Origin: Cyanophora paradoxa CCMP329
Taxonomy: Eukaryota; Plantae; Glaucophyta
Length of the DNA: 36,736 nt
Assembly (NCBI GenBank): GCA_004431415.1
Contig: QPMI01000576.1
Span: forward strand, 1-36,736
Direction of reading: 5' to 3'
The notes beneath the pieces were generated by a model, which saw nothing but the letters and a program-made list of their open reading frames with translations, had not been told where the DNA came from and did not search any database. The position numbers and the translations under genes were made by a program. Below are positions 1,400 to 29,664 of this stretch, piece by piece (position 1 is the stretch's first letter; each line of letters begins with the position of its first letter).

Positions 1400-1470
1400 A
1401 CACATATGAATATTCATATTTTAATCCTCGGCGTTCCGCCTCAGGATTAAAATATGAATTTCATATGTGT
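1400..1470. repeat. Left terminal palindrome/hairpin
   Basis: ACACATATGAATATTCATATTTTAATCCT - loop CGGCGTTCCGCCTC - AGGATTAAAATATGAATTTCATATGTGT (one indel in the stem). Confidence 0.9.
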
Positions 1471-2162
1471 GATTCGATGTTATATCAATAAATCGATTAA
1501 TTTATTTGAATTTTCACCTGAATTTCATATTTTACATGCATTTTCATTAATTTAATCGATGTATATCGATAACTCGATTAATCGATATGTATCTTAATTG
1601 TAGTTAATCGAATTTATCATAATTCGATTGATTTAATTGAATCTAAATGATCTAATCGAATTATATCAATAATTCGATTAAATCATGTTCTTTCCGATTA
1701 AATCAATTAAATATTTAACTTTGTTATCAAAGTGTCTAAGTTGACTCACTTTTCATAAACATTTTGAACTCTTAGTCTCTTTGAATTTCTAAGATGACTC
1801 ACTTAGTCAACTAGTCACTTTGTTACCATATCATCAGGGTGACTCACTTTTAGATCACTTTGAATTTCAAGCAAAATCAACTTGGATTTCAAAAGTGGAT
1901 TTCTAAGTGGACTCAAATGTTCACTTTGTGATACATGTTAGCTCAATCCTTACTGTTTATGGTCAGGGTTGACTAAGTGGGGAGTTGACACATTTTTGAA
2001 ATCCTTTTTAGAAACTTAGTCCAAATATTTCCTGTGAATTTGAGTCACTCAACCCACTTAGTCAACTTGCATTGAATTCGTAACAAATCCATATACTATT
2101 ACTACTTTACGATTAAATGAGTCAACCTTGAGTCCACTTAAATATAATATAATATAATAGGG
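1400..2162 (+). repeat. Left terminal inverted repeat (~763 bp)
   Basis: Reverse complement of 28851-29658; similarity stops after ...TATAATATAATAGGG (2162). Outer part rich in ATCGAT/TTCGATT motifs, inner part rich in GTTGACT/AGTCAAC/GACTCA motifs. Confidence 0.95.
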
Positions 2163-2189: not shown

Positions 2190-2744
2190 GAAATCGAATA
2201 GTATTCGAAACTTGACATTGCTTAATGTAGGGTGCATTCATATTTCGCTACATATACAGTAGATTTCTATCGTAAAGAATGCCGGAATCCGGAAAATAAT
2301 CATTGTAGAAAGCTATTGTAATAAAAAGGTAAATCACCCTGATCATCATTATAGAACTCATCAAAACGGAATCTATCATGTTTATGTCTCTCAGTCTTCT
2401 CAAATGTGAGGAAATTCATGTTTTATCGATCTCACTGCTACTGCTTGTGTTTTATGCTGAGCTTCTTTACCACAATGAATATATCAATTGCTAACATGCC
2501 TTCATTGAATAACAATGAGCTGTACAATGGCTTTCATCTAATAGCAGAACCAATGCAAACCAGGAGGTGATAGTTCCATCAAATATCTCACGTGTTTATG
2601 AACAATCCTAATACTTGTCTCAATATTGCTTGTTCAAGGTTCTCATAATCCAATTACCAAGAAGCTAACATGCTCATAGCCTGTTGCTATAGCTGTTTTA
2701 GCCTTGTAATCAGCATTACATGAAGCTCTGTATTTAGTCTCCAT
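2190..2744 (-). CDS. Hypothetical protein, frameshifted; 3' end uncertain
   Basis: ATG at 2744 overlaps the upstream stop (TAATG) and reads METKYRASCNADYKAKTAIATGYEH... No recognisable motif. Confidence 0.3.
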
Positions 2745-3877
2745 TAAGAATACTTAGAAAAATTATTAATCCTAATCGAACCTAATGCAAATATCCCTGT
2801 ACTCTACTTTGATGATGAAGTAGCCCTTTTCCTGTAAGCCTGAGAATGCTTTTTGTTGCATTCCTACAACCTGATCCTTCACATGATTAAAGGATATGTA
2901 AGGATCACCTTGTTACACTGCAAACATCTAACAGATACTTTCTCTTGAGCTTTGATGTAATGTGTCTCACTGTAATCGAATTTATCTTTACCATGAACTG
3001 TCATAGCAGCATCATAAACTTTTTTGTTTTACTATCATACTCTATATATAACCAATATTCTTATGGAGCAGTATCCTGCCCAAAAATGGGAAATATCGAT
3101 TTGTCCATAGTATTCAGCATAGGTATTCTGCTTTGCAATAAAATCGGTTCTCTCAGCATATAATACACACTTGTAGATACCAAACTTGGTGGCTCTAACC
3201 AGAAACTGATAATCTTCCAACCAAAATTGACTCCATGATAAGCAATTCCGAATTATCATATGGGGTGATCACAACAGCAAAATTAGGAGTTCACCCTCTA
3301 CTTGACAAAGAGCATAAACATCTGGTGGATATCCACAACTACCTTGTAGTGGTCACCAATTTCAACAAGAGAGTCTACTACTGCTGTTTGTTCATTTACA
3401 ACAATGGGGAATATTTTTATTATATAGGGGCATTCATGCTGGGACATAGGTTCGAATTCTTGTGTTGGGATCAATGGATTGGGTTGATCATTCACAAATA
3501 AAGGCGCTCCAACAGCCCACCAACCCTAAGACCATCCCAATATATGCTCCCCCGATTTGCAGTTAATAGCTCCCGACCTAGATTCAAAGAATAAGTAGAC
3601 AGAGATCTCCATAGCTATCTGGGTCTCCATAATGAGCAGAAAAGTTTGCATTTGTGACAAGTAGCTTAGTTGTCTTAACTATTCCATTATTTTTATCACA
3701 TCTGAGTTCCTGTAATCTCAGTTGTGGGTGGAACCAAAGTGTTCATTGTAGGTTGGACCTCTGTGGATTGGAGACCCTCTACATCATCAAAGGTAGCATG
3801 CTGTAAAACATGGTTTGCTGGGGCAGCTAATGATAGTTGAGGTGTAATAATTCGTTCAAGTGGGGTTGCTCAGCCAT
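2744..3877 (-). CDS. Fibre-like paralog F1 (shared N-terminal domain, unique C-terminus), frameshifted
   Basis: Manual reading gives AAPANHVLQHATFDDVEGLQSTE...NNGIVKTTKLLVTN...SGAINCKSGGAYIGDG (with homopolymer corrections), matching F2-F4. Runs into ORFs 3298-3495 and 3035-3259. Confidence 0.55.
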
Positions 3878-3878
3878 T

Positions 3879-4738
3879 TTACATTAAAGGGATATATCTT
3901 TTATGGGGTTGGGTCATCAATTACATCTGGCTCCATGTAAAACCCTGTAACTGAAAGAGTATCAGGAGTTACACCTCTAAGAGCTGATACAGCGGCTATA
4001 TCTGTTCTCAAACCGATAAGAGTTATAGTATATAACCCAATATCAGTAACAAACAGTCAAAGGTGAAATTATTATTATAAACACAGTAGCCATAACCGAA
4101 ATGATTATATCCCTGAACATTGAAATAGTATCTATGACCTACTGATTGTTGTTGGCTCTACAAGGGAAAGCATTGCAGATGGAATCGCAAGACCTCTCAG
4201 TACTCTTTTGGTTCCTTCAATTAATTCCGAGTTTTCAAGAGTAACAGTATATCCAATGTAAAATTGAATTAATGGCTGCTGTGCAACAGGAGTATATAAT
4301 CGAATTCGTTGGGGTCTTCTACATTTTGCTCTAGAGTATCTGGGACATCATTATACGAAATTGAGGATGAAAGCTGACCTGAAATTCGACAGCCACCCCA
4401 ATAAATGCTCCTCCTGATCTCACAGTAACAGCAGCAGAATTCTTATCGAAATCAAGGCTTTCAGATCAACACTGTAAGCATCAGGACCTCCATTGGTAGG
4501 CTGGAAAAGTTAGCATTTGTGACAGAAGTCGAGTTGTTTTAACCACACCAGAATTCTTATCAGCTCTCAGCTCTTTAACTCGAATAATCGAATTTTTATC
4601 AAAGGAGTTGCCATTGGAATTGGGTCTCTCTGTGGATTCTAAACCACGAACCTCATCATTTACTTCATGCTGGCGAAAATGCATTGCAGGGGATCCAAGG
4701 GAATATATAGGCAGTTGAACTCGATTATATTCACCCAT
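3879..4738 (-). CDS. Fibre-like paralog F2 (shared N-terminal domain, unique C-terminus), frameshifted
   Basis: ORF 4481-4777 (NSIIRVKELRADKNSGVVKTT) continues as SAAVTVRSGGAFIGGG near 4400-4440. Stop at 3879-3881. Confidence 0.6.
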
Positions 4739-4773
4739 TGCTTCTTTTACTAAGAAGGAAAGAAAAATAATGT

Positions 4774-5040
4774 TCATTGTTCTTCTGTGACATAATTATA
4801 TTCGATACCTTTCTTTACAGTTCCCCTTTGGAATGCATGTAAAACGATGGCTTCCTTTGAGGTTGGTATTTGAATTCCTGATGCAATGCAAGACTGGATC
4901 TCTTTCTGAACAATATCATCAATTGCAATTCTTGCCCTGTTATGAACCACATTATCAATCCAATCCTGAACAGAAGCTGCACAGAATTCCATTCCCAGCT
5001 TCTCAGTATCTGAGAGAACTACTTGGTAGATATTCGACAT
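4774..5040 (-). CDS. 88-aa protein resembling the small tailed-phage proteins encoded after C1q-type tail fibres
   Basis: Intact ORF MSNIYQVVLSDTE...QDWIDNVVHNRARIAIDDIV...QIPTSKEAIVLHAF.RG.VK. I recall this pattern from aquatic Caudoviricetes hypothetical proteins; not verified by search. Confidence 0.65.
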   Translation of the reverse strand: MSNIYQVVLSDTEKLGMEFCAASVQDWIDNVVHNRARIAIDDIVQKEIQSCIASGIQIPTSKEAIVLHAFQRGTVKKGIEYNYVTEEQ

Positions 5041-5042
5041 TC

Positions 5043-6074
5043 CTACTTTATAAAGAGAAAATTTATGTGACACTCAAAAGTTCACCTGTGAATGTTGTTC
5101 GATTTGTGTAGCTACCCCATTATTTGTTACAAGTGTTATATACTCACCCATAGCAATGTTAAGAATTACACTAATGTAAAGCGGTTTATTCGTAAGAGTT
5201 GAGTCATTTTGTGTTATGATACTTTGACCCCTGGGTCTTGGTCATTTACTTTTAAAGAGAGACTTATTGGACTACTTGAAGTTGAATGGTATATGCTGTA
5301 AATCTGTAATGACCTGCAACAGGAGCAGTGAACCTTCCATTACTGACATTGAATGCCCCCTATTATTCACAAACACTACTCCCAATTGATAAGAGCAGTT
5401 TCACTGTAGCAACATGAGGATATTAAGTTGAACAGAAAATCGAGGCTGATAGTCATATTTTAAATAACAATTTGTGTTGATTGTCAAGCGATTGGCTTCC
5501 AGAGTAGCCATAATATCACTGTTGCGTTTCAAACAAGATTCACATTGCTCCTGTATCGATTTCAGGTGTGACCACCTTGGAAGTTGCTGTTATTATCGAT
5601 TGTGTTGTTTCTGGAATACTTATGCCTCCATTGGCTGTTACTGAACCTGTAAATGTGCTTGTTCCTGTAATGTTTACTTGATTGGCTGTTAGAGTTCCAT
5701 CAATCCTTGCCCATCTCCAATATATGCCCCTCCACTTCTAACTGAAAGAGCAGCATTATTAATTGTATTATCAAAAGTAACTATTTTGGGTGTGGTGAAC
5801 CCTCCCACATTGTCATAAATTGCTGTATCTGAAACAATTTGACCTGATTGGACTTGGTTCTTGTTAGATACAATGAGTCCTGTGGTTCTTATTTTTCCCC
5901 CATTGCGATCACATCGAATTTCTTTGCATCTAATCACAGAATTTTGTGAAAACGAATCAGCCCTGTTGTTTCTGTGCAAATAAACCCAGGTGTTGCATCT
6001 GTTACTGTATGGTTCAGTTGATGTATTTTTGGGGCGGCATAACAGAAAACAGGAACTGCTATTTGTGTGGACAT
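5043..6074 (-). CDS. Fibre paralog F3 with C-terminal C1q-like domain, frameshifted
   Basis: N-terminus KEIRCDRNGGKIRTTG...SVRSGGAYIGDG. Beta-shaft ANQVNITGTSTFTGSVTANGG. C1q signature GAFNVSNGRFTAPVAGHYRF at ~5300-5360. Confidence 0.75.
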
Positions 6075-6096
6075 TCTTTATATTATACAGATAATA

Positions 6097-7165
6097 TTAT
6101 GTAGCAGTAACAAGATAACAAGAAAAATAGTATCTGATATCAAATTGAAGACTGGCTCCAGAAGAATTGCGTATATCAAAGGAGTCACCTTCAATAACAG
6201 AAAGTAAAATTTCATATGAAATTGGAGTTACAAATGTATTAGAAATCCCTGCGGACGGCATTGAAACCCTTGTTTGGATGGTTGTAGGATTTCCATTTAA
6301 ATAAATGCTGGTAGCAATATGAGTATAAGAGGTTGTGCCAGCTCTCATACATGCAAAGAACACCCTATATACTCCGGAAACAGGAGCTGTAAATTTTGTG
6401 GATGAAAAGTTTCCTTCATTGTTTACAAGATAAGCTCCATTTATAAAGTTAAAGGGTGTTCCAGCTGTAAGTATTATGGACCCTGTCAAACCAGGAGCTT
6501 GTCTTGATATATTCATTCTTGGACAATAGGATCGTTTCAGACCACTATTTTCCGGATTGTGATTGCTTTCAGATCTGTTATTGTCTTTTCGAGAGTGAAA
6601 ATGGTATTTCCGTTTCGTTTATAATTCACATTTGCATCTGTCCCATTATCCATCTCAGGTGCATTAACTCTTGTTGTAGCTTTTCGAGTTTCAACGCTAA
6701 CATTTCCCAAGAGTCCACCATTGAAGGTCATCAATCCTGTAAATGAACTTGTCCCATTCACATTTAATTGATTCGCTGTTACAGTCCCTGCAACATTTGC
6801 CCATCTCCAATGTATGCTCCTCCACTCTTGACAACAAGAGCCGAATTATTTATTGTGTTATCGAAAGTTACTATCTTTGCTGTGGTGAATCCACCCACAT
6901 TATCATACACTGCTGAATCTGGGACTACTTGACCTGCTTGAACTTGATTTTTATTCGAGATAATAATTCCTGTGGTTCTTATCTTGCCTCCATTTCGATC
7001 ACATCGAATTTCTTTGACTCTGAGTATATTATTCTCTGTGAAAGAGGTATTACTTGAAGTTTCAGTGCAAATATACCCAGGTGTTGAATCAACTACTCCA
7101 TGAGAGGTGCTATGAAGTGATTTGGCTGCAAGTTCATAGTTTGGGATTTCTAATAGAGAGGTCAT
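6097..7165 (-). CDS. Fibre paralog F4 with C-terminal C1q-like domain, frameshifted
   Basis: Joins ORFs 6779-7201, 6537-6761 and 6097-6516. N-terminus is highly similar to F3. C1q signature NNEGNFSSTKFTAPVSGVYRVFF...LLSVIEGDSFDI. Confidence 0.8.
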
Positions 7166-7184
7166 CTTTATAATTACGAAATAG

Positions 7185-10100
7185 TTAAATTGCGACAGCA
7201 ATGTAATGGATCGTTACAGTTTTGGATGAATTATTCATTGCATATGGATCAGTGAAAAGTTCACAAGTGAAATAATCACTGTAAACATTCAACAAATTCA
7301 CAGTAAAAACGACGGGAGTTACTTGATAATTTGGTTCTTGTCCTTCATGCCTGACTGTTGCTGTCACAACAGGAGGAGAAGCAAAGGCATTGGTAAAATA
7401 GATAGTTAGATTGAACACATATAAATTATTGTAATTCAAAACAGGAGTAGTGTAAACATACTTTCCTGCTTGAATTTTCCCATTGAAATATGCATTGAGT
7501 TGACTGGAAAGATCTGCTTCTGTGATACATCTACTAATAGTCTGATTATTGGAAGGGTTCATAGCATAGAAATTTCTTGCATAAGCATTTCCACGAACAA
7601 GTAAGGTTTTATCAAAGTAATTTTGCGAATTGTGGAAGAACCATGTTTCTTCAAACATAGGTCCTGCTGGTTCTACAATCTGACCTGATCCTACATACAT
7701 TGTGTTGTTGGCTCTAATTGTGGTTGCTGTGAAGGGATCAAGAGTTGGTCTATTGGTAAGATCATTGTAGTTGCCTGAGAAAATTGCAGGTTTGTTATAG
7801 ATATCTGTATTCCAATCATGAGTGTGTGCAAAATCTGTAATCTCTGCCTTTGTGTGATTGTGAGCAAAATCTGTAATCTCTGCCTTTGTATGGGTGTGAC
7901 CAACATATGCAACATTTCCGAGATCTAATATCTCTGATTTAACATGAGTGTGAGCGAAATTCGTAATATCTGCTCGGGTGTGATAGTGTGCAAAATCTGT
8001 AATTTGGGACTTGGTGTGGGTGTGTGCGAAATCTGTGATTTCTGCCTTTGTGTGGGTGTGTGATCTATTATTAAGATCAAGGAAGCTTCCCGAAAATGCA
8101 ACAGGATGCAGATTTGCAGCAGTAGGTTTATTAATGAGATCATTATAATCTCCTGTAAATGAAATGGTTTTCAGTTCACCCCTTCCTACATAATCAGAAG
8201 GTAGATCAATCTTGATGGGCATGATAGCTGGATCATCTGGAATCTCATACTCACCTCCTGGGTGAACCACAGGGAAGGTTTGATTGCTTTCAGTGTGGAC
8301 AAAGAAATTGCATGCTGTTACTGTTCCATCAATAATCCCACCTGTGAGAGGGAGGTAATTTCCTGTGACTCCTATACCTGCAATGATTGTATTAAGTTCT
8401 GTTTCATCTATGTAGTTTTGGGCTTGCAGGTAATCCTCTGTGACCACTCTTGATATGGTCTCATTGTGAATATTCTTTGCTGCTGCCCTTTGATTAATTT
8501 CTAAAACTCCCTCACCCACTCCACCATTATAATTCGTTTTTATCCATGCCATCTCACATCTCTTATAGTCATCTCGATTTCCTATGAGAGCATCAGGTAA
8601 CAGTCTCTCCCTGCTGAATATTAATTTTGGTCTTGAACCATCCAAATCACTCACATCAGTAACATTAATTTGGATTGCTGCATCTTTGTCATCATAGTTG
8701 ACTGGATCAGATGGGAGTGGTGGTAATCCTGATGTCATTGGGATGTCATCAGCATAGTAACTTGTCAAATAAATACCTGGTTTGGTGTCCAATGCTCCAA
8801 AGTTTCCACCTGCTGCAATCATCTGCATTCTTGTAGGGGGTCTGATGTATAATTCACCCTCCATAGTAGTCCCTGCATCAATGCCTTTTCGATTTACATA
8901 ATAGTCATTGAGTTGCAGCCTTTCAGGTATGGCATTGCTCTGGTAAAGACTCACACCATGTGAGAAATCTGTTAACAGATTGCCTGCAGATGCAAATTTG
9001 GGTTGCTGGTCAATTTCACCCAAGGGTGTCTGTGATTACAGTTGGTGATCTGGGTATAATCATGAGTGTGAGTATCAGGAGGGAAGGTGATAGGTTTGTC
9101 CACAATATTTGACCAGGCATGTGTGTGATCATCTGGGGGAAAAGTCAATGGTTTGTCCACAATATTTGACCAGGCATGTGTGTGATCAAAGTCTATAATT
9201 TGGTCTTTGGTGTGAGTATGGCTTCTGATCCACCCATCCACAACATTTGAAGTTGGATGATGTGGAAGGTTTGCATTAGATGTAACTGTAAGATAATCGA
9301 CAGTGATATTGCTTGCATAAAGGTTACTTGTGTAAAGGTTACTGGTAACAGTTAGGTCCCTGTGATTGTTCCACCAGTTTTGAGAAGATACTTTGATAAT
9401 TCAAGAGCAAGTTCATTTTTCGTTACATAATTTGCAAGCATAGCAAGGGTAACTATATTCACAAGGATCACAGCAGTAAGGTAATCCTCTGTGACCACTC
9501 TCGAAATATTTTCATTGTGTATGTTTTTTGCAGCCATCCTCTGATTGGCTTCCAGAACCCCACCATAATCGGTTTTAATCCATGCAAGCTCTGCCCTCCC
9601 ATAATTATCATTTGCAGTTCCCACTATGGGAATATACGAATATTTATCTCTGCTGAATACTATCATTGGTCTTGAGCCATCTAAACTGCTTACATCTGCT
9701 ACATGAACCTGTATAGCAGAGTTGAAATTTTGGTAGGTTGCTGGGTCTGTTGGGACTCTGAATGTATCTGTGGGAATGTCAGCCTCCATGTAGCTTGACA
9801 CAAAGATATTTGGTATGGTTGCTCCTGGTTCAGGTGGTGGATTATAAGAGCCTGGTAGTGTCCTAATATGAAGTGGTCCTCTCATAGCTGAATTCGCAAG
9901 TGTCCCATTCACATGAACATAGTGTTCATTCAAAAAGATTCTTTCAGGGACATTACAAGTCTGATAAAGAGAAACCCCCAAGTTATCAAGAGGCTCTACC
10001 TTTGCGAATTCTGGTTGGTCATTGATCTCATCCCAAGTGTGTTCATGTTTGCTTGGTGGGAACTCAGTAGGTATCCCATCAATATCACCCCAATCATGCC

Positions 10101-11482
10101 TGTGATCTTCTGGTGGATACTTTTGAGGTTTGCCTAAGATCTCATCCCAATCATGATTGTGATCCTCTGGGGGATACTTTGCAGGTTTATTATTTATTTG
10201 TTCATAATCAGGAAAGAACTCCCAGATCTCAGGTCGAAATCCATCTGGTAACAATTCCTCATGGGGTTCATAAGGTTGCTCATAATCAACAGCTGGTGGA
10301 TCATGCCCATCTGGCAAATACTCCTCATCAGGTTCATAGTTCTGCTCATACTCAAACTCTTGGGGATCTAAGCCATCTGGTAGTATCTCCTCCTCATTGG
10401 GGTCAAACTGATCATATTCATATTCTTGTGGGTCAAAACCATCTGGTAAATATTCTTCCTCATCTGGAACGAATTGATATTCATCAAGCTCTAATATATC
10501 GACTTCAGGAGGTAAATACTGCTCATCTATTTGCTTTCTGGGTTCAATTATAGGTTTATTGCGAACTTGCTCCCAACTAACAATATGCTGCCCAAAGGCT
10601 ACATCTTCAGTTGCTGTGTATTCTCTTCCAGGCTGTTTCTTTGGTGTTAAATCGGGAGGTCCATTTGGAAATGGAATAGGGAATGGGACTGTTGGTCCAT
10701 TGGGACCATAATGCTCAATTATTTCCCTTAGAGTTTTCTCACTCACAAGTTTCTCCCCATTTGCATACACATTGCTGCCATGGATATTTCGCCATTGCCT
10801 GGTTCTAATTCCAAGGTCTTTCACATTGCTATACAAAGGCAAAAGGTGCCTATCCATTTCGACTAAATCAGGATGTAAATGGATTGCTACTGGTTGACTG
10901 GGGCTACTGTTGATTGTAATTGATGGCTTTTTTTGATGGACATCTTTTGGAGTAAAGAAACCAAAAGGCTCATTTCTTGCAAAGTCATAAGTAATATCCT
11001 TGGGTAGACATCATTTGTGTAGGAGACCTGATTTGTATTGGCAATGGGACCCACTTGCAATACTTGGGGACCTCAGCTTTTGCAGTGCTGCCCTCATTGT
11101 AAATTCGCAAAGCTGTGTTCTGTTTGCCCTGCTCATCTTGAACATTGAAAATCAATCGACCACTATCGAACCTGGAAGGTATATCTGGGTGAGTGCCACT
11201 GGTTTTTAGTTTCCTAGGTCTCCTTCTTGTTGCTTTGATCTCTGCCACTTGGTTTGCTTTCACATTACCCAAACTAAAGGCTACACTGACATCCTCTTTA
11301 TCTGGATCGGTTTGATTCACAGATAAAGCATGCTCCCTTGATTGAGTCTTTGATGAATTATCAGAGCTGTGGTCAATTGAAACTGAACCCTTTACTTTAA
11401 TATTATCAAAGTTCACATGCTTGGTGCTGCTTGCATTATCATCTTGAATGGTTTCTAGATTTGGTGGGTAATTGAAGCTCAT
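7185..11482 (-). CDS. Large phage-tail-fibre-like protein (~1400 aa if ORFs 10985-11482, 9352-10857, 8972-9241 and 7185-9023 are one gene)
   Basis: Phage fibre motifs HLLP..N..DLG...WRNI, YLLKTGGTITG, YLPLTGGIIDG, (V/I)xFSGxYNDLxNKP, and ~15 HxH repeats (HTHTKAEITDFA). C-terminal FTNAFASPPVVTAT...TIHYIAV resembles H-type-lectin/gp53-like tips. The join is inferred. Confidence 0.75.
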
Positions 11483-11525
11483 GGCTTTTACTATATGGAT
11501 TTATAAAATTCCTGATAAGTAAAAG

Positions 11526-13082
11526 ATGCCTCTCAAGGTCGTTTTAAGTCTTTCTGGCGGGGGTGCAAGGGGCATTATCATAACCAGGCTGCTAAAAGAA
11601 ATCGAAAATCGAACTGGCAGGAGAATAATCGATCTTGTGGATCTTGTGAGTGGAACTTCCACTGGTGGGATCATTGCAATAGGTTTGAATATAAGGCATC
11701 CTGATAGACCAGGTGAACCTAAACTGACAGCAAACGATTTACACAATATTTACCTAACTCAACTGCCTTTGATTTTCGCAAATCCTCGAAATATCATTGA
11801 AAATGCCCTATTTAACACAAAGTATGATGTGGGACCCTTGGAGACTGCAATCAATTCAGTTACTGGGGAATCACTAATACAGGATTCCCTAAAGGACATT
11901 GTGATCACATCCTTTGATACTCAGAATATGAAACCAATATTTATCACAAATGATAACAATTACAGCTTTCTGCCTTGTAAGATTGCTGCTAGGGCTACCT
12001 CTGCTGCTCCTACATATTTCTCTCCTGTAAGCATTGTTGATTTCAATCGGGGAGTATTTGTCTGTCTCATTGATGGTGCCATTTCGGGAAACAATAATCC
12101 CAGTGTGTGTGGTTACAGCCATGCAAAGAAGATTTACAGTGATGATGATGATATTATAGTAATAAGCATCTCTTGTGGAGAGGTGGACCCACATTTAGAG
12201 TCTGATTATGTGGGTTATGCTTATGAGACTGTGAACAGCTGGGGCATTCTCTCATGGATTGCCTCAACAGATGGAAGCCCATTGATTAACATGCTCATGG
12301 CTGCAAGTGAGCTTTCTGCCCTTGATAAGATGGAGGAGTTGTTACCCTACAACTATGATCAGGATTATGGGAGATACTATAGGCTATCAGTCCCACTTCC
12401 AAATCATATAGTAAGCTCCCTGGATGACACTTCTAAAATCCCAGACATGCTTGCATTCACTGAAACCTACATAGCAGCAAACAATGATATGATTAATAAG
12501 CTTTGCAGCCTACTAGTAGCAAACTATGAACTGAAGAACCCTTCAAAGGCTTACATTTCATCCACTCTCACTACATCACCTCCTTTGGATGCCAATTGGT
12601 ATCAGCTTTCAGATGATGCCTTTACTGCCTCATCCTCTGTGACAGGTAAAGAGCCTTTCATGGCTAGACCTTCAGCATTTGGCTGGGAAGCTGGAGCCTA
12701 TGCTCCTGAACAGATATGGGAAACCCCCACTGAATACCTTCAAGTTGCTTTCCCATATACTTTTGAACTCTCTTCTGTGATTGCATATGGATCAGGGGAC
12801 ACCAATGCTTTTATTAAGACTTTCAATGTGGCAACATCCACTGATGGGATCAACTGGTCTTTTATTCGATTAGATGGGCAGAACAAAATATATGTCTGTG
12901 AGAACATTAACAATGCTCACAACTCAGGTGATATGGCTCTGTTGAGTGGATTTCCTCTCAGCATCAAAGATGCTTTTTACATAGGTTATTCTCTCAGAAT
13001 CAAATATATTCGCATTTATCCCCTTGTGTATGTGAATGCTCCCACAATGAGAGTTGACTTTACAGGTGCCTTTATTCGATAA
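11526..13082 (+). CDS. Patatin-like phospholipase fused to C-terminal F5/8 type C (discoidin) domain
   Basis: Intact 518-aa ORF with GGGARG oxyanion loop, GTSTG nucleophile, SAAPTYF and DGA catalytic Asp. C-terminus has discoidin pattern EYLQVAF...FNVATSTDGINW...KYIRIYP...MRVDFTG. Confidence 0.92.
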   Translation: MPLKVVLSLSGGGARGIIITRLLKEIENRTGRRIIDLVDLVSGTSTGGIIAIGLNIRHPDRPGEPKLTANDLHNIYLTQLPLIFANPRNIIENALFNTKYDVGPLETAINSVTGESLIQDSLKDIVITSFDTQNMKPIFITNDNNYSFLPCKIAARATSAAPTYFSPVSIVDFNRGVFVCLIDGAISGNNNPSVCGYSHAKKIYSDDDDIIVISISCGEVDPHLESDYVGYAYETVNSWGILSWIASTDGSPLINMLMAASELSALDKMEELLPYNYDQDYGRYYRLSVPLPNHIVSSLDDTSKIPDMLAFTETYIAANNDMINKLCSLLVANYELKNPSKAYISSTLTTSPPLDANWYQLSDDAFTASSSVTGKEPFMARPSAFGWEAGAYAPEQIWETPTEYLQVAFPYTFELSSVIAYGSGDTNAFIKTFNVATSTDGINWSFIRLDGQNKIYVCENINNAHNSGDMALLSGFPLSIKDAFYIGYSLRIKYIRIYPLVYVNAPTMRVDFTGAFIR

Positions 13083-14004
13083 ACTCCAACTGAAACGAAT
13101 TATCGATTCCATTCATATCAATCAGTTCACCAAAGTAATCTTTAAACTCAACTGTGAGTTCCCTTATCACCAGGTTTCGGTCATTTATCTGAATGAATTC
13201 TGCATGCTCACCACTATGGTAAACATAGCCACCTATATCCTTACTCAATTGTAATCTAAGGATAGCCCCCTGGTTATGTGGTTGCGATTTCGGAATTATA
13301 TTGTGTCTGCTGGCAAAGGGGGCTAGCTCTTTAATATGCATGTACAGATACTGCTCAGCATTCATATCAGACATCTTCCTGCTGTCAAAATAATACTGCA
13401 AGGGCTTTGAGGAGAGTCTGGGTCCTGAGAAGGTGATTCCCCATGCTGGGTGATCAGGTGTAATAGGTTTACCATCATACTTTAAAAGGTTCTCAGGTCG
13501 ATATGGAGATCCACCAACAGGAGGAGTGCTATAATACCCATTGGTGTATTCAGTAGAACTTACACCCAAAAGCTTCCCGATTCGATTGTTGCTTGCAATA
13601 AAACGAAACTCATGATTACTGTAAAACTCCACTTTATAGGTAGTTGGATTGTAGAATATCTTGAACTCAAAAAACACAGTTTTGTCTGCAATTGTTTTGA
13701 AGCTTGAATAGTTCAGCCCATAATTATAGGGATGTGTTACCCCAAAATGACCCTGATTGATGTAGCCACTGGGAAGGGGATACACTTTCTGTGTGATGAC
13801 TTCATTGTATGAACCATCTTGGTAATTAAACTGAACTGTTAGATGATCAGTTCCCACACTGTTATAGATACTGTTCGGAATCTCTGCATATAGAACCCTG
13901 CATTCCCTTGGTCTCTCTACTGGAGTTGTGAGGGTGACCCTGTAAGAGTTTTCATTTTGTCCTTGGCTTCTATCCCTGCTATCAATATTAACGAGCCGGT
14001 TCAT
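13072..14004 (-). CDS. Minor capsid (penton) protein 1, single jelly-roll
   Basis: N-terminal IDSRDR, YAEIPNS, YLYMHIKEL and C-terminal LTVEFKDYFGELIDMNGIDNSFQLEF, typical of PLV/NCLDV pentons. Lies next to the MCP module. Confidence 0.85.
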   Translation of the reverse strand: MNRLVNIDSRDRSQGQNENSYRVTLTTPVERPRECRVLYAEIPNSIYNSVGTDHLTVQFNYQDGSYNEVITQKVYPLPSGYINQGHFGVTHPYNYGLNYSSFKTIADKTVFFEFKIFYNPTTYKVEFYSNHEFRFIASNNRIGKLLGVSSTEYTNGYYSTPPVGGSPYRPENLLKYDGKPITPDHPAWGITFSGPRLSSKPLQYYFDSRKMSDMNAEQYLYMHIKELAPFASRHNIIPKSQPHNQGAILRLQLSKDIGGYVYHSGEHAEFIQINDRNLVIRELTVEFKDYFGELIDMNGIDNSFQLEFIE

Positions 14005-14033
14005 TTTAATATATAAATATAGATAAAAGAAGA

Positions 14034-15043
14034 ATGCCTGTGGATTACATCGAGGTTAGCTCATTTAATACAATCTCTGGTGATGGTCCCACATCAAGCT
14101 TTGTGGCTCGACTCCCCAGTAGTTATGAGAATGTGAGGGCTGTGAGACTGGTCTCAGCCGAATTTTATAACAGCATCCCTATGGTGAGTGGTGAAACCAA
14201 AGCAGGAGATGTCACAGTTGATAACACATTTAGTATTTATTATTCGGAACAAACTCCAGGAGCTGGAAGCTCAGGAATTCCAACAACTCGCCCAGCTGCT
14301 GATTTTGAACAATGGAAACAATTCATGGTAAATCGCGAGACCCCATCCAAAGCCACCAACAGCTGGTGAATGTAATCAACTCAAAATTCATTGGCAGAAC
14401 TCCCCAACCATCCATTCGCTGCAAATGGGATGAGTCACTGAAACGAATTATATTCCACTCGGCAGTGCCTTTTTACCTGGCTTTCTCACTTGCTGTAAAC
14501 CCAAGCCAACAAACAATCCAAAAGCTATTGAGTTCAGCTAGACTGCTTGGTCTTGATCCTGGAAGATATGGGAATTCCCCAATCAAATCCCAAGTTTATG
14601 ATGCTCTCACTGATGGAATCTTTACTGATGGTCGAGTGAATGGCATTATATCTTCTTTTGAGCCTGAGAAGACCAGGGACAGTGTTTTGTTTGTGAGAGT
14701 AAAGGAGCTGGGTGATCTGGTTCAATGTGGGGATGGTCTTCTGACTGGTTACTTTCATAAAATAGTGGTTCCTGACAAAGATTATGGTGAGCATGTTGTT
14801 TACAATTCAACAGAGGCTCATCCACTTTATAAATACTATAACAAAAAGGTTGGATTATCCACTTTCTCGGTTGATATTGTTAATGCTGTAAATGAACCAA
14901 TTGATTTTGAGGGTCAACCTGTTCATCTGACCTTTGAAATTCGCTATGGTGATGAGCCAGCAGGAGACCCAGTTTATGAATACTTTAAGATGAGAATGTC
15001 GCAGCTTCACCCTTCCTATCCAGTTATTACAAGCTTCGCATAA
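14034..15043 (+). CDS. Minor capsid (penton) protein 2, frameshift near 14340
   Basis: VRLVSAEFYNS, LFVRVKEL and FSVDIVNAVNEPIDFEGQPVHLTFEI align with the same motifs in mCP1. Confidence 0.8.
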
Positions 15044-15096: not shown

Positions 15097-16467
15097 ATGG
15101 ATATCACTTCCACTCTTCAAAGACTTTCGCTGAAAGAAGCCCTAACAACCCCAGAGGAGGCGAAAGCCTTTTTCCTGGATAACTCCCTTATGCTTGGTCT
15201 CGAATCCAAGTCTAAGCCAGTTCTAGTTGTTGTGAATCCCAGCAATACTTTTGAGAATAATGTTGGAAATCGCATTTCCTTCAAGCTACCTCGCTACAAT
15301 TTCTGTGGAAAACTCGAACTTGCTTTCGACCTTCCAGCCATCACTTTTGCTGCTGATACTGACCTAGTTCGCAATGGATACACTCGCCCAGTTGGTGCTT
15401 TAGTTCAGCGACTTGAAATTACCTATGGATCTTACACCTACCATATTCCATCTGATTTCCTTGCTCATTTCCCCCTGGTCTATTATTCGGAGGATCAACT
15501 AGCTAAAAAGAAGCGATCAATGGGCATGGTTCATGGCATTCCTGCTCATGGAACCAACCGCCTTGGTGGCTCATTTTTCGTTGAAATTCCTGTGCCTTGG
15601 CTAAATCACTACCTTCCCCTTGGTGCTTTATCTGGTGAAATGGTTGTTACTGTTTGGTTTAAGGATGCTGGAAAGGGTTATGTTGAAACTTCCTATGGTG
15701 GTCGTGGTCTTACTGTTGCAGCAGCTGATGTAGATTATTCAAAAGATGACGGTCTTGGAACTGCCCCTGCTGAAACTGTTCTGGCAAATGTTGGTCAAAA
15801 CATCACAGACTTTACTCTTGGTGCAACAACCCCTGTCATTTCTATTACTTCTCCTCGCCTTTACATGCATGCTATTAATGTTTCTGATGAGCTTTTCGCT
15901 ACTGTAATTGAAAAAGTAAAGACTACTGGCATGGCTATTCCCTCCCTTGATATTGGATTTGTAGATGCTAGTGCTTTCCCTGCCAAGGGCAATGCCCAAC
16001 CCAATCGAATTAACCTCTCTCAAATCTCAGGTCTTGTTTATGCTCTGCTTGTTTCAGTTCGTGATAATGCAACTGTTGATAAATCCACTGGCTCCCACAG
16101 TGTTCTTAAGACCTATGCCAACTCCAAAGATATTACTTTCACTGTTGAAATTAATGGACAGCGACTTTATGCCACTGAGCCAATTTCCCTACTCAAAGGT
16201 GCTGAGCTAATTGCTGATGCCTTCAAATGCTCTAACATGGATAAGGTTGCTGATCGCTATGTCCTTTCAGGTTTAAGTTTCTGCATTGATGGAGAGAAGG
16301 CAATTCGAAATATTGCCCAGTCTGGTTATGTTGATTTAACAAATTCCTCCTCTTCATTCCTCACCCTGTACATGCCTTCAGATAAGGTAATCGATGTTAA
16401 TGTTCGCGCTCTCATGCATTCCTATATAATTTTGGACAAGGATGGGCTTCGTCGTATAAATTTGTAG
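15097..16467 (+). CDS. Major capsid protein (double jelly-roll, 456 aa)
   Basis: Intact beta-rich ORF between pentons and ATPase, with ISFKLPR...LELAFDLPAI, LVQRLEITYG and FVEIPVPW...YLPLGAL.GEMVVTVWF pattern of PLV/NCLDV MCPs. Confidence 0.88.
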   Translation: MDITSTLQRLSLKEALTTPEEAKAFFLDNSLMLGLESKSKPVLVVVNPSNTFENNVGNRISFKLPRYNFCGKLELAFDLPAITFAADTDLVRNGYTRPVGALVQRLEITYGSYTYHIPSDFLAHFPLVYYSEDQLAKKKRSMGMVHGIPAHGTNRLGGSFFVEIPVPWLNHYLPLGALSGEMVVTVWFKDAGKGYVETSYGGRGLTVAAADVDYSKDDGLGTAPAETVLANVGQNITDFTLGATTPVISITSPRLYMHAINVSDELFATVIEKVKTTGMAIPSLDIGFVDASAFPAKGNAQPNRINLSQISGLVYALLVSVRDNATVDKSTGSHSVLKTYANSKDITFTVEINGQRLYATEPISLLKGAELIADAFKCSNMDKVADRYVLSGLSFCIDGEKAIRNIAQSGYVDLTNSSSSFLTLYMPSDKVIDVNVRALMHSYIILDKDGLRRINL

Positions 16468-16540: not shown

Positions 16541-17272
16541 ATGCCCCTCACAATTAATGAGTTTGTAGATCGTGCAAATGCCAAGCATAATGGTAAATTC
16601 GATTATTCGAAGGTTCAATTTACAAAATGCAAGGATAAAGTTCTCATTTCTTGTCTGACTTGCAGTACAATATTTGAACAGCGTGTGGATCACCATCTAA
16701 GAGGGTCAAGCTGTAAAAAATGTAGTTTTCAGCGGTTGGGAAATGAACGCAGAAAAGAGCTGGAAACATTTATAGAGCAATCAAGAAAAACACATGGAGA
16801 CAAATATTGTTATAATAAAGTAGAATATGTGAAAGCTCACACACCAGTTTGTATAAGATGCAACTCTTGTAACAAAGAGTTCATGCAACCCCCAATCATT
16901 CATATTCGAAATACTGGTTGCCCATTTTGTAGATCTTCAAAAGGTGAGGAAGAGGTGTGCAAAGTGTTGGACTCCATTGGATTGGGGTATACACAACAAC
17001 ATACGTTCAAAGATTGTAGAAATAAGTTTCCATTAAGGTTCGATTTCTATATTGATTCTCTTCGAATTGCAATAGAATATGATGGTATTCAACATTTCAA
17101 ACCAAGAAAGTGGTTTGGTGCTGATAATGGTGAAGAGCAATTTAAACAGGTTCAAATTAATGATGGAATAAAAAATCGATACTGTGAAGCTAACAACATT
17201 AAACTACTGAGAATCCCATACACTGAAACTGATATTGAGGGTTGCATTAAACGATTCCTATCTAACCTGTAA
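16541..17272 (+). CDS. Zinc-finger repeat + PD-(D/E)xK (Vsr/DUF559-like) endonuclease, probable free-standing homing endonuclease
   Basis: Two YSKVxF/YNKVEY...CxxC...H..GxxC repeats, then SKGE, LRFDFYI, IEYDGIQHF and IKLLRIPY. Confidence 0.85.
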   Translation: MPLTINEFVDRANAKHNGKFDYSKVQFTKCKDKVLISCLTCSTIFEQRVDHHLRGSSCKKCSFQRLGNERRKELETFIEQSRKTHGDKYCYNKVEYVKAHTPVCIRCNSCNKEFMQPPIIHIRNTGCPFCRSSKGEEEVCKVLDSIGLGYTQQHTFKDCRNKFPLRFDFYIDSLRIAIEYDGIQHFKPRKWFGADNGEEQFKQVQINDGIKNRYCEANNIKLLRIPYTETDIEGCIKRFLSNL

Positions 17273-17328: not shown

Positions 17329-18069
17329 ATGCCAATACCAAGTTCTGATCTGGATGAATTTGTGGCTGGTGAAATGATAGAACCCCCTTTCAGACTACTC
17401 ATACTCGGAAAAAGTGGATGCGGAAAAACAGAAGCTGTAAAATATTATTTGAAACAGCTGCATGATGCCAAAAAGATTGATACAACACTTATTATATCCG
17501 CTACCTCATTTTCACATTTTTGGGACAAAGCTGCTACTGTTCAACTGGGTGCATGGGATCCCAATACATGTCGAAAATTATAAAGAAAGAGAGGCAAAAG
17601 GGAGAAAGGAGAAGAACTTAACCATATGCTGGTGATTTTAGAGGATATGATAGAAAATGACCAGCTGGATCTCAGTCGAGATAAAACAGTGGGAATGCTT
17701 TATGTTCGTGGCAGACATGTCAATATATCAATTATAACTATTTCCCAAAAATTAAGAAAGGTCGCAAGTGTTATTCGCTGCAATAGTGATATAGTAATTA
17801 TGGTTTGTGCAAGCAATCAAAAAGAGCTGGAAGCATTTGCAGAGGAGTTTTCGACTTTTCCTCGCAAAGAAGATTTCTATCAACTGTTTGAAGAGTATGT
17901 CCACTCATATCAATTCCTTGTTTATACATCTTTCAAGTATAATGTGGGCTACTATGTTGATAAAGCCGATTTAGTTGGAGATTTCGATTTTCCTCGCTTC
18001 CACAGGAAGCCCAAGAAGAAAGAAGATGAACTGAAACCACCAGAGAAAGAGGAAGCCCTAAAGAAGTGA
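17329..18069 (+). CDS. A32/FtsK-like DNA packaging ATPase, frameshift near 17580
   Basis: Walker A GKSGCGKT, Walker B LVILED, RGRHVNISIITISQ and IRCNSD. Confidence 0.92.
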
Positions 18070-22698: not shown

Positions 22699-22876
22699 AA
22701 GTGGACTCATGTTGACTCAAATTTATCATAAAAGACCCAAACAGTCTTTTATTTATGGTTTATTTATCGATTAGGTTGACTAAGTGGGGGAGTTGACTCA
22801 TTTTTTCACAGATTCTAAAAAGGACTCTGCCCTAAAAGAAATAAAAAGTGCCTCAACTCCACCCACTAAGTCAACC
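22699..22876. promoter_or_regulatory. Internal iteron-like cassette, colinear with the inner TIR; candidate replication origin
   Basis: Inverted pair GGTTGACTAAGTGGGGGAGTTGA (22774-22796) / TCAACTCCACCCACTAAGTCAACC (22853-22876) around an A/T spacer, matching 28874-29059. The repeat is seen directly; the origin function is inferred. Confidence 0.6.
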
Positions 22877-23336: not shown

Positions 23337-26300
23337 ATGCCCGAATTACCAACAAACTCATAAGGGAGAAGAAATGGGAACTCATGGGATTGCTGGAACA
23401 CTATATGCAGCCCATGAAATAACAGAGGCTGAATATGACCGGGAAATAGATTTAATTGCAAGGGCAGACCCACTTTAAGCAGATTAACCAGAAAAGCAAA
23501 TAACCTATATGATAAAATTGAAACCTTGGATGAACTGGATAGGCTTAGGCAAATAGAACCAGAGCAGAAGATGGAACAGCCATGAATGAATTATATCGCT
23601 GGCTCACATACAGAGCCAGAAGGGAAGTTGTTGTAGATGTGATTGAATTCCTGGATAGAATTGCTACATCCTTCCAAATCGATTAAAGCAGGGTTTAGAT
23701 CAATTCAGGGCAATCAAGGTTCGCTTGTCTTTTATCTGCAAGTTCGTTAAAGTGAGCAATCCACAGGTTTGGATATCGAAATACATTTACAGTGATTACT
23801 TTGTATTAACCAGGTCGAGAAATATTCGAACTGAGCTGAATAAAGCAGCCCAAATGTGTCAGGAGCAGATGAATGTGGTTGATAGCTATCGCTTAGAAAG
23901 AATTGAAATACTCAGAGTGGCTATTATGAGTTATGCTCCAACTGGTGGATGCTTTCTACAAACCCCAGAGTGGATTGCTAGGAAGAGAGCCACAGTGAAT
24001 ATTCGAAATATAGATGATTCCTGCTTCGAAAATGCGATTTTAGCCTCGATTTACAGAAAATCTATTAACTCCCATAAGAGGAATGAGCTTTCACAATATC
24101 GCAAATGGAAATACTCAGCAATCGCTTATAATCCGCTGGCTCTCAATTTCGACAATATCCATTCCCTGTTGCCTGTGATGCTGAAATAATTGATAAATTC
24201 GAGGCTCAAAATGCAGGCATTAGCATTAATATATTCGGAATCGATGGAGAGGTTGTTTATCCCTGCATCAATCCAGTTACCCAGGCAGAAAGCATAAGGT
24301 TAATCTCATGCTGATATTTGATGATGAAGGGAATGGTCATTATATTACAATCATGTCCCTTTCAAGATTATTGAAAGTAAACCATGAAACATACAATGAT
24401 CAGAAGTTACACTACTGTGACACATGCTTATCTCGATTCAGGTCTGAGGCTAAACTCACTGCTCATGTGGACTCAAATAGATGCATTGATTGGAGACTCT
24501 CAAAGGGAATCACACCAAAACCTGAGACCACCATAGAGTTTGGACTGAAAAACCTCAGGAAAACTGTTTGGCTTCCTGTTGTGGTTTACTGCAAGATTGA
24601 ACATAGAAGCATCCCCATTGATGCATCAAAATCTAAGAGGGAAGTCTCAGCAGTCAACCTGAGAGTAGTCACTGGGGCAGATGTTCAGGAGTTTCGATTT
24701 GAGGGTCAGGATCCAATGGAGGTCTCTTTGAATGCTTGGAGTCCAAAGCAAGAGAACTAATCGATTTCCTGTTTACCAACATTCCTATGAATGAACTCAC
24801 AGATGAGCAGAAAGCAATTTACAGAGCTACCAAACACTGTTACCTTTGCAGTGAGAGGTTCACTAAGGAGAACTTCAAATGCAGGGATCATGATCACCAC
24901 ACAGGTCATTATATTGCTCCTGCATGCAGAAACTGCAATCTCCATAGGAGAATCTCAAAGCAAACCAAAGTTGCAGTAGTTGTTGACCAAATGGATGACT
25001 GTGGGACATTCATTTTCAGAAAAATAGCAGGCATGGGTGATAAAAAGCGAATCGAAATCCTTTCGAAAAACTTTGATCAATACCTTTCATTGCAATGGGG
25101 TCTTTACAAGTTCATTGATGCAAGCAATTTCATGGATTTGGAGCTGCTGATGTAGATGAGTTAATGAACAAATTCCAAGCCTTCAGAAGGCTTTCACACT
25201 CAGTATATGGACTTGACCCAGTTCATTATGTATCTGCACCTGGGTTATCTTGGGATGCTATGCTTAGGACCACCGAGGCAAAAATAGAGCTTATAAGTGA
25301 TGTAGAGCAATACGAATTTGTTGAGAGGGAATCAGGGGTGGCTTTGCAACAATGCCTTGTAGGTATGCTGAGGCTGATGGTGAGAACTCCCACATTATGC
25401 TGTTTGATGCTAACAACTTGTATGGCTACTGTTTGAGTCAGCCAATTCCAGTTGGTGATTTTAGATGGGAGACCGAATTCAACCCACAAGATAACAGATC
25501 CAGTTTCCTGGAAGTTGATCTGGAATACCCAATAAGGCTATATCTAGACCACAGTGATTTCCCCTAATTATTAACAAGAAAATAGTAGAATATGCGGAAT
25601 TATCACAATATCAAAAGAGCCTGTTGGATCTTTCAGGAGAAGAGCTTGATAAGACCCCTAAGCTAACTGCAACCTTTGGTTCTGTGGCAAACTATGTTAT
25701 TTCTGAGCCTCTTCTGCAATATCTGTTGGACAAAGGTGTGAAATTAAAGAAAATTCACAGGGTCCTCTCATTTACTGTGGCTCCTGTAATGAAACCCTAC
25801 ATTGAGCTGAATACTGAGATGAGAAGGAAAGCAGTGAATAAATTCGAGGCTGATTTCTATAAACTCATGAATAACTCAATCTATGGGAAATGCATTGAAT
25901 CTTGCAGAGGTAGATCTGTGGTTAAGATTGCAAACAGTGAGAAACTGTTTATGAAATATGCAGCTTCCCCATTGGTGAAATCAACAAGTCCCATAAACGA
26001 AAAAGCAGTTGCCTTTGAGTTTACACAAAGCATGTGAAACTAGATAAGCCTGTTGCAATTGGGCTTATGTTTTGGATGCAGCCAAACTGCATAATTACCA
26101 GTTCTTCTATGATACTGTAAGGTCCCAATGGACAAAAGCAAAGTTACTATTCCATGATACTGACTCCTTCTGTCTATATATTGAATCTAAGACCTTACAA
26201 AAAGATATAGAGAATATATCTTATGCCTTGGACCTAGGGGATCTAACAGAATGACCCCAGGTAAATACAAAAATGAAATGCCTGGCTCTGCAATATTGGA

Positions 26301-28850: not shown

Positions 28851-29658
28851 CCCTATTATATTATATTATATTTAAGTGGACTCAAGGTTGACTCATATTA
28901 ATCGTAAAAGTAGTAATAGTATATGGATTTTGTTACGAATTCAATGCAAGGGTTGACTAAGTGGGTTGAGTTGACTCAAATTTCACAGGAAATATTTGGG
29001 ACCTAAAGTTTTCTAAAAAGGATTTCAAAAAATGTGTCAACTCCCCCACTTAGTCAACCCTGACCATAAACAGTAAGGATTGAGCTAACATGTATCACAA
29101 AGTGAACATTTTGAGTCCACTTAGAAGATCCACTTTTGAAATCCAAGTTGATTTTGCTTGAAATTTCAAAGTTGATCTAAAAGTGAGTCCACCCTGATTG
29201 ATTATGGTAACAAAGTTGACTAAGTTGACTAAGTTGAGTCATCTTAAGAAATTCAAAGAGACTAAGAGTTCAAAATGTTTATGAAAAGTGAGTCAACTTA
29301 GACCACTTCTGATAACAAAGTTAAATATTTAATTGATTTAATCGGAAAAGAACATGATTTAATCGAATTTATTGATATAATTCCGATTAGATTCATTTAG
29401 GATTCAATTAAGATCAATCGAAGTTATTGATATAATTCCGATTAACTACAATTAAGATACAATATCGATTAATCGAGTTTATCGATATAACATCGATTAA
29501 ATTAATTGAAAATGCATGTAAAAATATGAAAATTCAGGTGAAAATTCAAATAAATTAATCGATTTTATTGATATAACATCGAATCACACATATGAATATT
29601 CATATTTTAATCCTGAGGCGGAACGCCGAGGGATTAAAATATGAATATTCATATGTGT
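28851..29658 (-). repeat. Right terminal inverted repeat (~808 bp)
   Basis: Starts CCCTATTATATTATATTATATTTAAGTGGACTC, the reverse complement of the left TIR inner end. Differs from the left copy mainly by single-base indels. Confidence 0.95.
29586..29658. repeat. Right terminal palindrome/hairpin (perfect 28-bp stem)
   Basis: 29586-29613 is the exact reverse complement of 29631-29658. The 17-nt loop contains GGCG-GAA-CGCC. Confidence 0.92.
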
Positions 29659-29664
29659 ATCATC
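29659..29664 (+). repeat. Right 6-bp target-site duplication ATCATC
   Basis: Matches 1394-1399 exactly. Confidence 0.93.

What the first reader, a model, noticed from the sequence alone, without database searches (positions are those of the whole stretch)
4774..5460. Apparent bacteriophage gene pair (C1q tip plus downstream small protein) in a eukaryotic virus
Seen: the F3 C1q-like domain (GAFNVSNGRFTAPVAGHYRF) stops 2 nt before an intact 88-aa ORF with WIDNVVHNRARIAIDDIV...QIPTSKEAIV. From memory, this small family follows C1q-domain fibre genes in aquatic tailed phages. Inference: a tip plus chaperone/adhesin module was captured together from a phage, plausibly inside a bacterivorous host.
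Basis: partly seen in the sequence, partly recalled or inferred. Interest (0 to 1): 0.75.

Follow-up and report, generated by a model that had tools for sequence, protein, structure and literature searches.

The report
Phage fibre-tip cassette in algal virus
A virus-like element inserted in a eukaryote's genome has a fibre gene ending in a C1q-type tip, followed by a small gene whose relatives sit behind such tips in aquatic bacteriophages, so it likely borrowed a phage attachment module whose small protein probably helps fold or hold the tip.

Summary
The main observation holds. The window contains a 28.3-kb integrated Polinton-type virus (terminal inverted repeats, 6-bp target duplication, capsid, ATPase, polymerase). 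Fibre gene F3 ends in a phage-type C1q domain and is followed by an intact 88-aa ORF. Two corrections: the gap is 22 nt, not 2, and F3 is frameshifted here, most likely by assembly deletions. The 88-aa family has no Pfam or PHROG model. Its relatives (up to 61% identity) lie in aquatic tailed phages: 83 of 101 distinct ones directly follow a C1q-tipped gene and 12 follow a tail-assembly chaperone. No fetched locus matched this element's core genes. Short-read contigs suggest that other copies in the host keep the small gene but vary the tip, as phages do. Best reading: a phage-derived tip plus a conserved assembly factor, grafted onto the virus's own fibre base. Not shown: a nested tree position, joint capture, binding, or a bacterivorous host; gene content points to a glaucophyte alga. 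Phage-like fibres and fibre-chaperone pairs are already reported in such viruses, so this is a new variant.

The parts
4774..5040 (-). Intact 88-aa ORF (P0001); unnamed phage family that follows C1q-tipped fibre genes; likely tip assembly factor
   Evidence: profile of relatives built without it hits at 1e-35; no PHROG hit and only a sub-cutoff Pfam hit
5063..5450 (-). C1q-type tip of fibre F3 (start approximate), split over frames in this assembly; likely stop TAA 5065-5063
   Evidence: a short-read contig covers 5082-5724 with 0 substitutions and 10 gaps
5063..6074 (-). Fibre gene F3; N-terminal base shared with F2, F4 and F5, for which no outside relative was found
   Evidence: 77% identity to the F2 base; no relatives of the F2 base
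5046..5052 (-). TATAAAG motif 5 nt before the small ORF; also directly before the F2 and F3 starts; candidate element promoter
   Evidence: 3 of 9 occurrences in 2201-28800 precede these three starts; motif chosen after the fact
6097..7165 (-). Fibre gene F2, paralogue with a second C1q-type tip and no small gene behind it
   Evidence: Pfam C1q E 0.006, below cut-off; phage-tip profile 6e-10
3300..4738 (-). Further fibre paralogues F4 and F5 (approximate bounds, frameshifted) with non-C1q ends
   Evidence: tblastn hits at 4720-4397 and 3721-3614; no C1q-profile hit there
7185..10857 (-). Two long fibre-like genes; one has a phage tail repeat and an H-lectin-like end
   Evidence: PTR 7e-5 and H_lectin 0.011, both below cut-off; PHROG tail-fibre hits
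11526..13082 (+). Patatin lipase fused to an F5/8 (discoidin) domain
15097..16467 (+). Likely double jelly-roll major capsid protein
   Evidence: Atlas neighbours carry Capsid_N/Capsid_NCLDV, score 0.98 but low recognition value; no Pfam hit
17626..18069 (+). A32-type packaging ATPase fragment
   Evidence: PF04665 E 8e-6
23725..26037 (+). Protein-primed DNA polymerase B, in pieces
   Evidence: PF03175 E 1.3e-5 on the last piece, just under cut-off
1400..2162 (.). Left terminal inverted repeat; ATCATC target duplication at 1394-1399
28851..29658 (.). Right terminal inverted repeat; ATCATC at 29659-29664
   Evidence: 808 aligned columns, 0 mismatches, 44 gap openings against the left arm

Best explanation
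An integrated Polinton-type virus carries a fibre gene with a phage-type C1q tip directly followed by an 88-aa gene of a tailed-phage family; the two were likely taken from an aquatic phage, and the small protein likely acts as an assembly factor for the tip. Shown: the element's anatomy, the gene order, the phage context of the family and its strong link to C1q tips. Inferred: the fibre base, for which no outside relative was found, anchors to the capsid vertex. The C1q trimer would bind a host surface receptor and is exchanged among element copies. The conserved, mostly helical small protein would contact the invariant part of the C1q trimer and help it fold or trimerise, filling the slot that Phage_tail_APC chaperones fill behind other short fibres. 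My odds by step: phage origin of the small gene about 0.9; functional link to the tip about 0.75; single joint capture about 0.6; transient chaperone rather than retained part about 0.55.
For: Gene order: 83 of 101 distinct relatives directly follow a C1q-tipped gene by my own profile; 45 of 61 do so by Pfam, 41 above cut-off; 29 of 31 in a second scan that partly overlaps the first. Complementary slots: 3 of 69 distinct Phage_tail_APC genes follow a C1q tip, and 5 of 149 C1q tips are followed by one. Context: 25 of 48 viral loci have head, connector or tail PHROG hits and 14 more have other PHROG hits. The isolates are Limnohabitans phage DC33 and Synechococcus phage S-SRM01, both with a C1q gene upstream. 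Constant partner, variable tip: mean column identity 60% against 28% over 49 phage pairs. In the host's DNA runs, summed depth is 3,900-14,400 on the small ORF and 460-1,700 on the tip, and joints at 5063 lead to other sequence. Domestication: GC 0.38 and GC3 0.33 lie within the element's range, and the upstream motif is shared with F2 and F3. Precedent: Pam3 TNF-like fibre with a 3:3 chaperone (PMC9608196, abstract).
Against: The tree gives no donor clade: branch length 0.84, paired only weakly (77/79) with the longest row. The tip-similarity test does not single out F3: p 0.02 for F3 but 0.003 for F2. 63 of 149 phage C1q tips are followed by neither this family nor a Phage_tail_APC gene, and the element's own F2 tip lacks the gene, so it is not needed right behind every tip. 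18 of 101 relatives do not directly follow a C1q gene, although 13 of these have one within about 2 kb. The best fold matches are ribbon-helix-helix antitoxins at Z 4.6 or less, not fibre chaperones. Depth is summed over contigs and is not a copy number.
Confidence: 0.6

Rival explanations
1. The small protein is a retained virion part (a cap or adaptor that stays on the fibre, or a linker between fibres) rather than a transient chaperone. The phage origin is the same.
For: Same gene order. It is much more conserved than the tip. One copy sits within an array of several fibre genes. Some fibre chaperones stay bound in virions (recalled).
Against: It is small and helical, with no lectin-like or glycine-rich adhesin character. 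It occupies the slot used by assembly chaperones.
Confidence: 0.25
2. Tip and small gene reached the element separately, or through an intermediate eukaryotic virus, and the phage-like order is inherited from that intermediate or coincidental.
For: No donor clade; no tip-level signal of joint capture; ameliorated composition suggests an old transfer. Only the best 80 hits per scan were examined (of 221, 553 and 364 hits), and eukaryotic genomes were not searchable.
Against: The element has one copy of the small gene and it sits 22 nt behind a C1q tip, matching the phage arrangement (typical gaps 3-50 nt). No scanned neighbour of a relative matched a PLV or giant-virus core family, and the element's core genes found no match.
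Confidence: 0.25
3. The small protein is a ribbon-helix-helix-like DNA-binding regulator or antitoxin, and its place behind fibre genes has nothing to do with fibre assembly.
For: Many top structural rows are ParD, MazE, KacA and TacA antitoxins, Z 3.3-4.6, over residues 1-57.
Against: These Z values are in the noise range for helical models (note). The N-terminal segment has hardly any basic residues across relatives. There is no conserved toxin neighbour, and the tight link to C1q tips has no regulatory rationale.
Confidence: 0.08
4. The phage-like genes are a contaminant or assembly chimera and not part of the element.
For: The window has many indel errors.
Against: The genes lie between inverted repeats with a 6-bp target duplication and match the element's composition. 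All 30 bins of 2800-7300 are covered in three separate DNA runs, and contigs join the small-gene side of 5063 to tip sequence.
Confidence: 0.02

Closest known systems
Phage-like fibres of Polinton-like viruses, including phage tail repeat genes next to Phage_tail_APC chaperones in Rhodomonas lacustris PLVs (PMC12220804, section 13 part 1 read)
   Same: Endogenous protist PLV with phage-type fibre modules and a fibre-plus-small-partner gene pair. The paper's PTR + H-lectin fibre (one Cyanophora paradoxa PLV) and patatin-discoidin fusion (glaucophyte and rhizarian PLVs) also occur here.
   Different: Here the tip is C1q and the partner is an unnamed family, not PF16778 or an S74 chaperone. 'C1q' occurs 0 times in that paper's text and in its 2 supplement files held as text.
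C1q-domain receptor-binding proteins of marine phages (PMC3909814, passages)
   Same: C-terminal C1q tip near tail fibres, hypervariable against a conserved N-terminus; the same depth pattern appears among host copies here.
   Different: Here it is in a eukaryotic jelly-roll virus. The passages I saw do not mention the small downstream gene.
Cyanophage Pam3 fibre gp24 with chaperone gp25 (PMC9608196, abstract)
   Same: Fibre with a TNF-like domain (C1q and TNF share a fold, recalled) served by a separate chaperone in a 3:3 complex.
   Different: gp25 has a beta-sandwich plus a helical domain. The 88-aa protein is predicted nearly all helical and has no PDB sequence match.
Virophage DSLV2 tail proteins (PMC12724248, abstract) and Gezel-14T Ltf (10.1101/2022.07.28.501842, passages)
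   Same: Small eukaryotic dsDNA viruses with fibres related to phage fibres; the DSLV2 ones are related to Synechococcus phage proteins.
   Different: Those are T4 gp37- or gp36-like, not C1q, and no companion gene of this family appears in what I read.

Membership tests
Polinton/Maverick-type virus (PLV sensu lato) | Terminal inverted repeats and 6-bp target-site duplication | tested here: met
   that 6 bp is the Polinton norm is recalled
Polinton/Maverick-type virus (PLV sensu lato) | Double jelly-roll capsid protein and A32-type ATPase | tested here: met
   ATPase above the Pfam cut-off; capsid by Atlas neighbours only, weak recognition value
Polinton/Maverick-type virus (PLV sensu lato) | Protein-primed polymerase B and retroviral-type integrase | tested here: inconclusive
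   Polymerase piece 24.8 bits against a cut-off of 25.8; the two integrase-like pieces (26697-27601, label from recall) have no Pfam hit
Phage-type C1q fibre tip (PF00386-like) | C-terminal C1q domain with the FTAPVAG-Y-F motif and a final F(S/T)G strand | tested here: met
   Pfam itself does not score the broken F3 pieces
Unnamed C1q-linked small phage family | Sequence membership and position directly behind a C1q tip | tested here: met
   1e-35 to a profile built without it; 22-nt gap
Phage_tail_APC chaperone (PF16778) | Match to the Pfam model | tested here: not met
   no hit at E 0.05
Tail-fibre assembly chaperone (functional class) | Binds the fibre tip and is needed for its folding | not testable with these tools
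   needs co-expression and folding assays
Ribbon-helix-helix antitoxin or regulator | RHH fold with a basic DNA-reading strand | tested here: inconclusive
   Z 4.6 at best, rmsd 3.9, 56 aligned; N-terminal segment not basic
Gene pair captured together from one phage lineage | Nested, concordant placement of both genes | tested here: inconclusive

The most novel reading that the evidence does not exclude
The 88-aa family is an undescribed class of fibre assembly factor dedicated to C1q tips. A population of endogenous algal viruses has adopted the whole phage 'constant partner, swappable tip' system and diversifies its receptor-binding tips by recombination at fixed anchors among copies in the host genome.
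Probability: 0.3. Interest if true: 0.68.

Novelty: new variant of a known kind. Interest (0 to 1): 0.47.

Why it matters
It gives a likely role to a widespread unnamed phage family (512 clusters at 50% identity) and shows that the family crossed into a eukaryotic virus with its gene order kept. Many copies in one host genome appear to carry different tips, so receptor-tip exchange in Polinton-like viruses could be studied directly from one genome. The wider point, that these viruses use phage fibre parts, is already in print, which limits the surprise.

Tried and rejected
Complex prediction of a native phage pair (L010 tip x3 with small protein x3) returned 'no answer', score 0.01, alignments not used; it is no evidence either way. 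Fold searches of the 88-aa model (mean pLDDT 84.7): no Z of 5 or more among 48,161 chains, no BFVD match at E 0.001, no PDB sequence match at E 1. The single-sequence model of the F2 tip failed (pLDDT 36.5) and was not used. No relatives were found for the capsid protein, the F2 base or the F2 tip among longer proteins, so sister elements could not be compared; these blanks are weak. GTDB genomes gave 1 clear hit on a 13.7-kb MAG contig and 2 marginal hits that I dropped. No RNA holder was listed; run X15 is only guessed to be RNA and is not used as evidence of expression. Three flank ORFs gave no Pfam hit, so the host is not identified from its own genes. No whole genome is held, so element copies could not be read. 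A closer second look at the junction in read data was not obtained. The scan's earlier findings held nothing. No tRNA genes. The Atlas call on the small protein (Uroviricota) has a low recognition value and is a lead only. 10.1101/2025.06.17.660233 (passages) was irrelevant, and 10.64898/2026.06.19.733378 had 0 hits for six terms.

Full report
Setting. The window holds an AT-rich element in GC-rich flanks. It runs from 1400 to 29658, with inverted repeats of about 760-800 bp and the hexamer ATCATC duplicated on both sides. It encodes an A32-type ATPase, a DUF5906 helicase, polymerase B pieces and a patatin-F5/8 fusion, and a likely double jelly-roll capsid protein (weak recognition value). This is an integrated Polinton-type virus. 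The two repeat arms differ by 0 substitutions but 44 gap openings over 808 columns, which points to a young insertion in an assembly with many indel errors. No whole genome is held.

Observation. The 88-aa ORF (5040-4774) and the quoted C1q motif (5359-5300) are present. F3 is split over frames. A short-read contig of 653 nt covers 5082-5724 (643 nt) with 0 substitutions and 10 gaps; a contig in a second run shows 6 gaps and 0 substitutions over 5082-5421. The breaks are therefore most likely missing bases in this assembly; I could not read the contigs, so an intact frame is inferred. The spacing is not 2 nt: the likely stop is TAA 5065-5063, 22 nt before the ATG, and the alternative is 33 nt before it. 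The tip scores well above shuffled DNA against 145 phage tips.

The small family. It has no PHROG hit and only a sub-cutoff Pfam hit. A word-based search gave 26 hits among 26 candidates at 47-61% identity. A profile search gave 512 clusters at E 0.001 or better. Among 50,697 phage records, 3 match: Limnohabitans phage DC33 and two records of Synechococcus phage S-SRM01. I fetched the best 80 of 221 viral and the best 80 of 553 metagenomic hits, later the best 80 of 364 with another lead sequence, and 3 from GTDB genomes, of which 2 marginal ones were dropped. Of 61 distinct upstream ORFs from the first 82 loci, 45 hit Pfam C1q (41 above cut-off), 12 hit Phage_tail_APC and 4 hit neither. Over 163 hits, 101 distinct, my own C1q profile (built from 41 of these tips, so partly circular) gives 83 directly behind C1q, 12 behind a Phage_tail_APC gene, 4 other and 2 at contig edges. 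Of the 18 not directly behind, 13 have a C1q gene within about 2 kb. The later scan gave 29 of 31. For context I scanned 98 of 115 picked neighbour proteins from 48 loci: 25 loci hit head, connector or tail PHROGs, 14 hit other PHROGs, 9 hit none. Pfam scans of further neighbours added T4-like neck, sheath-stabiliser and baseplate genes, SU10 portal and adaptor, and RecT, and no giant-virus or PLV core family; many neighbours had no hit. The element's core genes matched no ORF in 165 loci or in 48 later ones. So every classifiable relative examined is in a tailed-phage setting, but eukaryotic genomes were not searchable.

Origin. The tree (69 of 128 rows after removing near-duplicates; 92 columns) leaves the element's protein on a 0.84 branch, weakly paired (77/79) with the longest row; no donor clade emerges. 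Tips that are followed by the small gene score slightly higher against F3 than other tips (median 66 against 61.5, p 0.02), but F2, which lacks the gene, shows the same (62 against 57, p 0.003). Joint capture therefore rests on gene order alone. Composition matches the element, and TATAAAG precedes the starts of F2, F3 and the small ORF (3 of 9 occurrences, motif chosen after the fact). Both suggest an old, assimilated transfer. No outside relative of the fibre base was found, which fits a phage tip on an element-specific base.

Variation among copies. In three DNA runs, summed contig depth is 3,900-14,400 on the small ORF bins and 460-1,700 on the F3 tip bins; the F2 tip is low too, while fibre bases are high. 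Joints run from 5063 to 5300, 5307 and 5646, and from 5341 to 5425 and 5746, with unknown sequence between. I read this as many copies that share the small gene and the tip's anchor motifs but carry other tips. Summed depth is not a copy number, and the sequence between the joints was not seen. Phage pairs show the same contrast: 60% against 28% mean column identity in 49 pairs. PMC3909814 (passages) reports hypervariable C1q tips in pelagiphages.

Mechanism. In these phage loci, 3 of 69 Phage_tail_APC genes follow a C1q tip. Of 149 C1q tips, 80 are followed by the small family, 5 by Phage_tail_APC, 63 by other ORFs and 1 by none; the 80 is inflated because loci were fetched around the small gene. 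The family thus fills the chaperone slot for C1q tips, and I infer an assembly factor. The model is mostly helical, with one 31-residue helix. The best structural rows are ribbon-helix-helix antitoxins at Z 4.6 or less, which is noise level. The function is untested.

Host. PMC12220804 (section 13 part 1, passages, term search of 2 supplement files) reports a PTR + H-lectin fibre in only one PLV, from Cyanophora paradoxa, and patatin-discoidin fusions in glaucophyte and rhizarian PLVs. This element has both, though the PTR, H-lectin and F5/8 hits are below cut-off. A glaucophyte host is therefore likely but not shown from host genes. That glaucophytes are not known bacterivores is recalled; PMC5167767 (passages) only presents phagocytosis as a peculiarity of one green alga among Archaeplastida. 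The bacterivory claim is unsupported for the present host.

Novelty. Phage-like fibres are known in PLVs and virophages (PMC12220804; 10.1101/2022.07.28.501842, passages; 10.1101/2025.10.09.676808, passages; PMC12724248, abstract; PMC8502044, passages). Fibre-repeat genes beside Phage_tail_APC genes are reported in 19 Rhodomonas PLVs. C1q tips also occur in bacterial injection systems (PMC12923769, passages). I found no paper on C1q tips in PLVs or on this small family in eight searches. The library lacks most subscription papers, and preprint supplements and figure images were not seen, so they may bear on this. Verdict: a real feature and a new variant of a known kind, interest 0.47.

Noticed in passing
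window 3300-10857, minus strand: At least six fibre-like genes in tandem: four share one N-terminal base (F2-F5) and two long ones share another block; their ends differ (two C1q, one H-lectin-like, others unassigned).
   Followed up: partly
window 1400-1460 and 29586-29658: The element's ends carry a near-perfect hairpin (35-nt arms, 3-nt loop at the right end), followed by degenerate 55-nt tandem repeats.
   Followed up: no
window 22763-22806: An internal sequence 81-86% like a motif in the terminal repeats lies downstream of the helicase gene, in a stretch with no long ORF listed.
   Followed up: no
window 16541-17272 and 2646-3028: An intact zinc-finger and nuclease-like ORF follows the capsid gene (DUF4379 hit); fragments near 2.9 kb look like a second copy (by eye).
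   Followed up: no
window 6914-7107: Contigs in two runs replace 192 nt of the F2 base with 40 other letters, suggesting shortened fibre variants among copies.
   Followed up: no
L010 648-7979: A phage array of short genes with three Phage_tail_APC genes, ending in a C1q gene plus the small family; a clean natural system for testing chaperone specificity.
   Followed up: partly
L003 (PQ492659.1): The record is filed under Inoviridae although it is 39 kb with a fibre-like gene block and an L-alanyl-D-glutamate peptidase, which suggests a tailed phage.
   Followed up: no
window 32705-33585: A host-side tandem duplication of about 490 nt at 94-100% identity.
   Followed up: no
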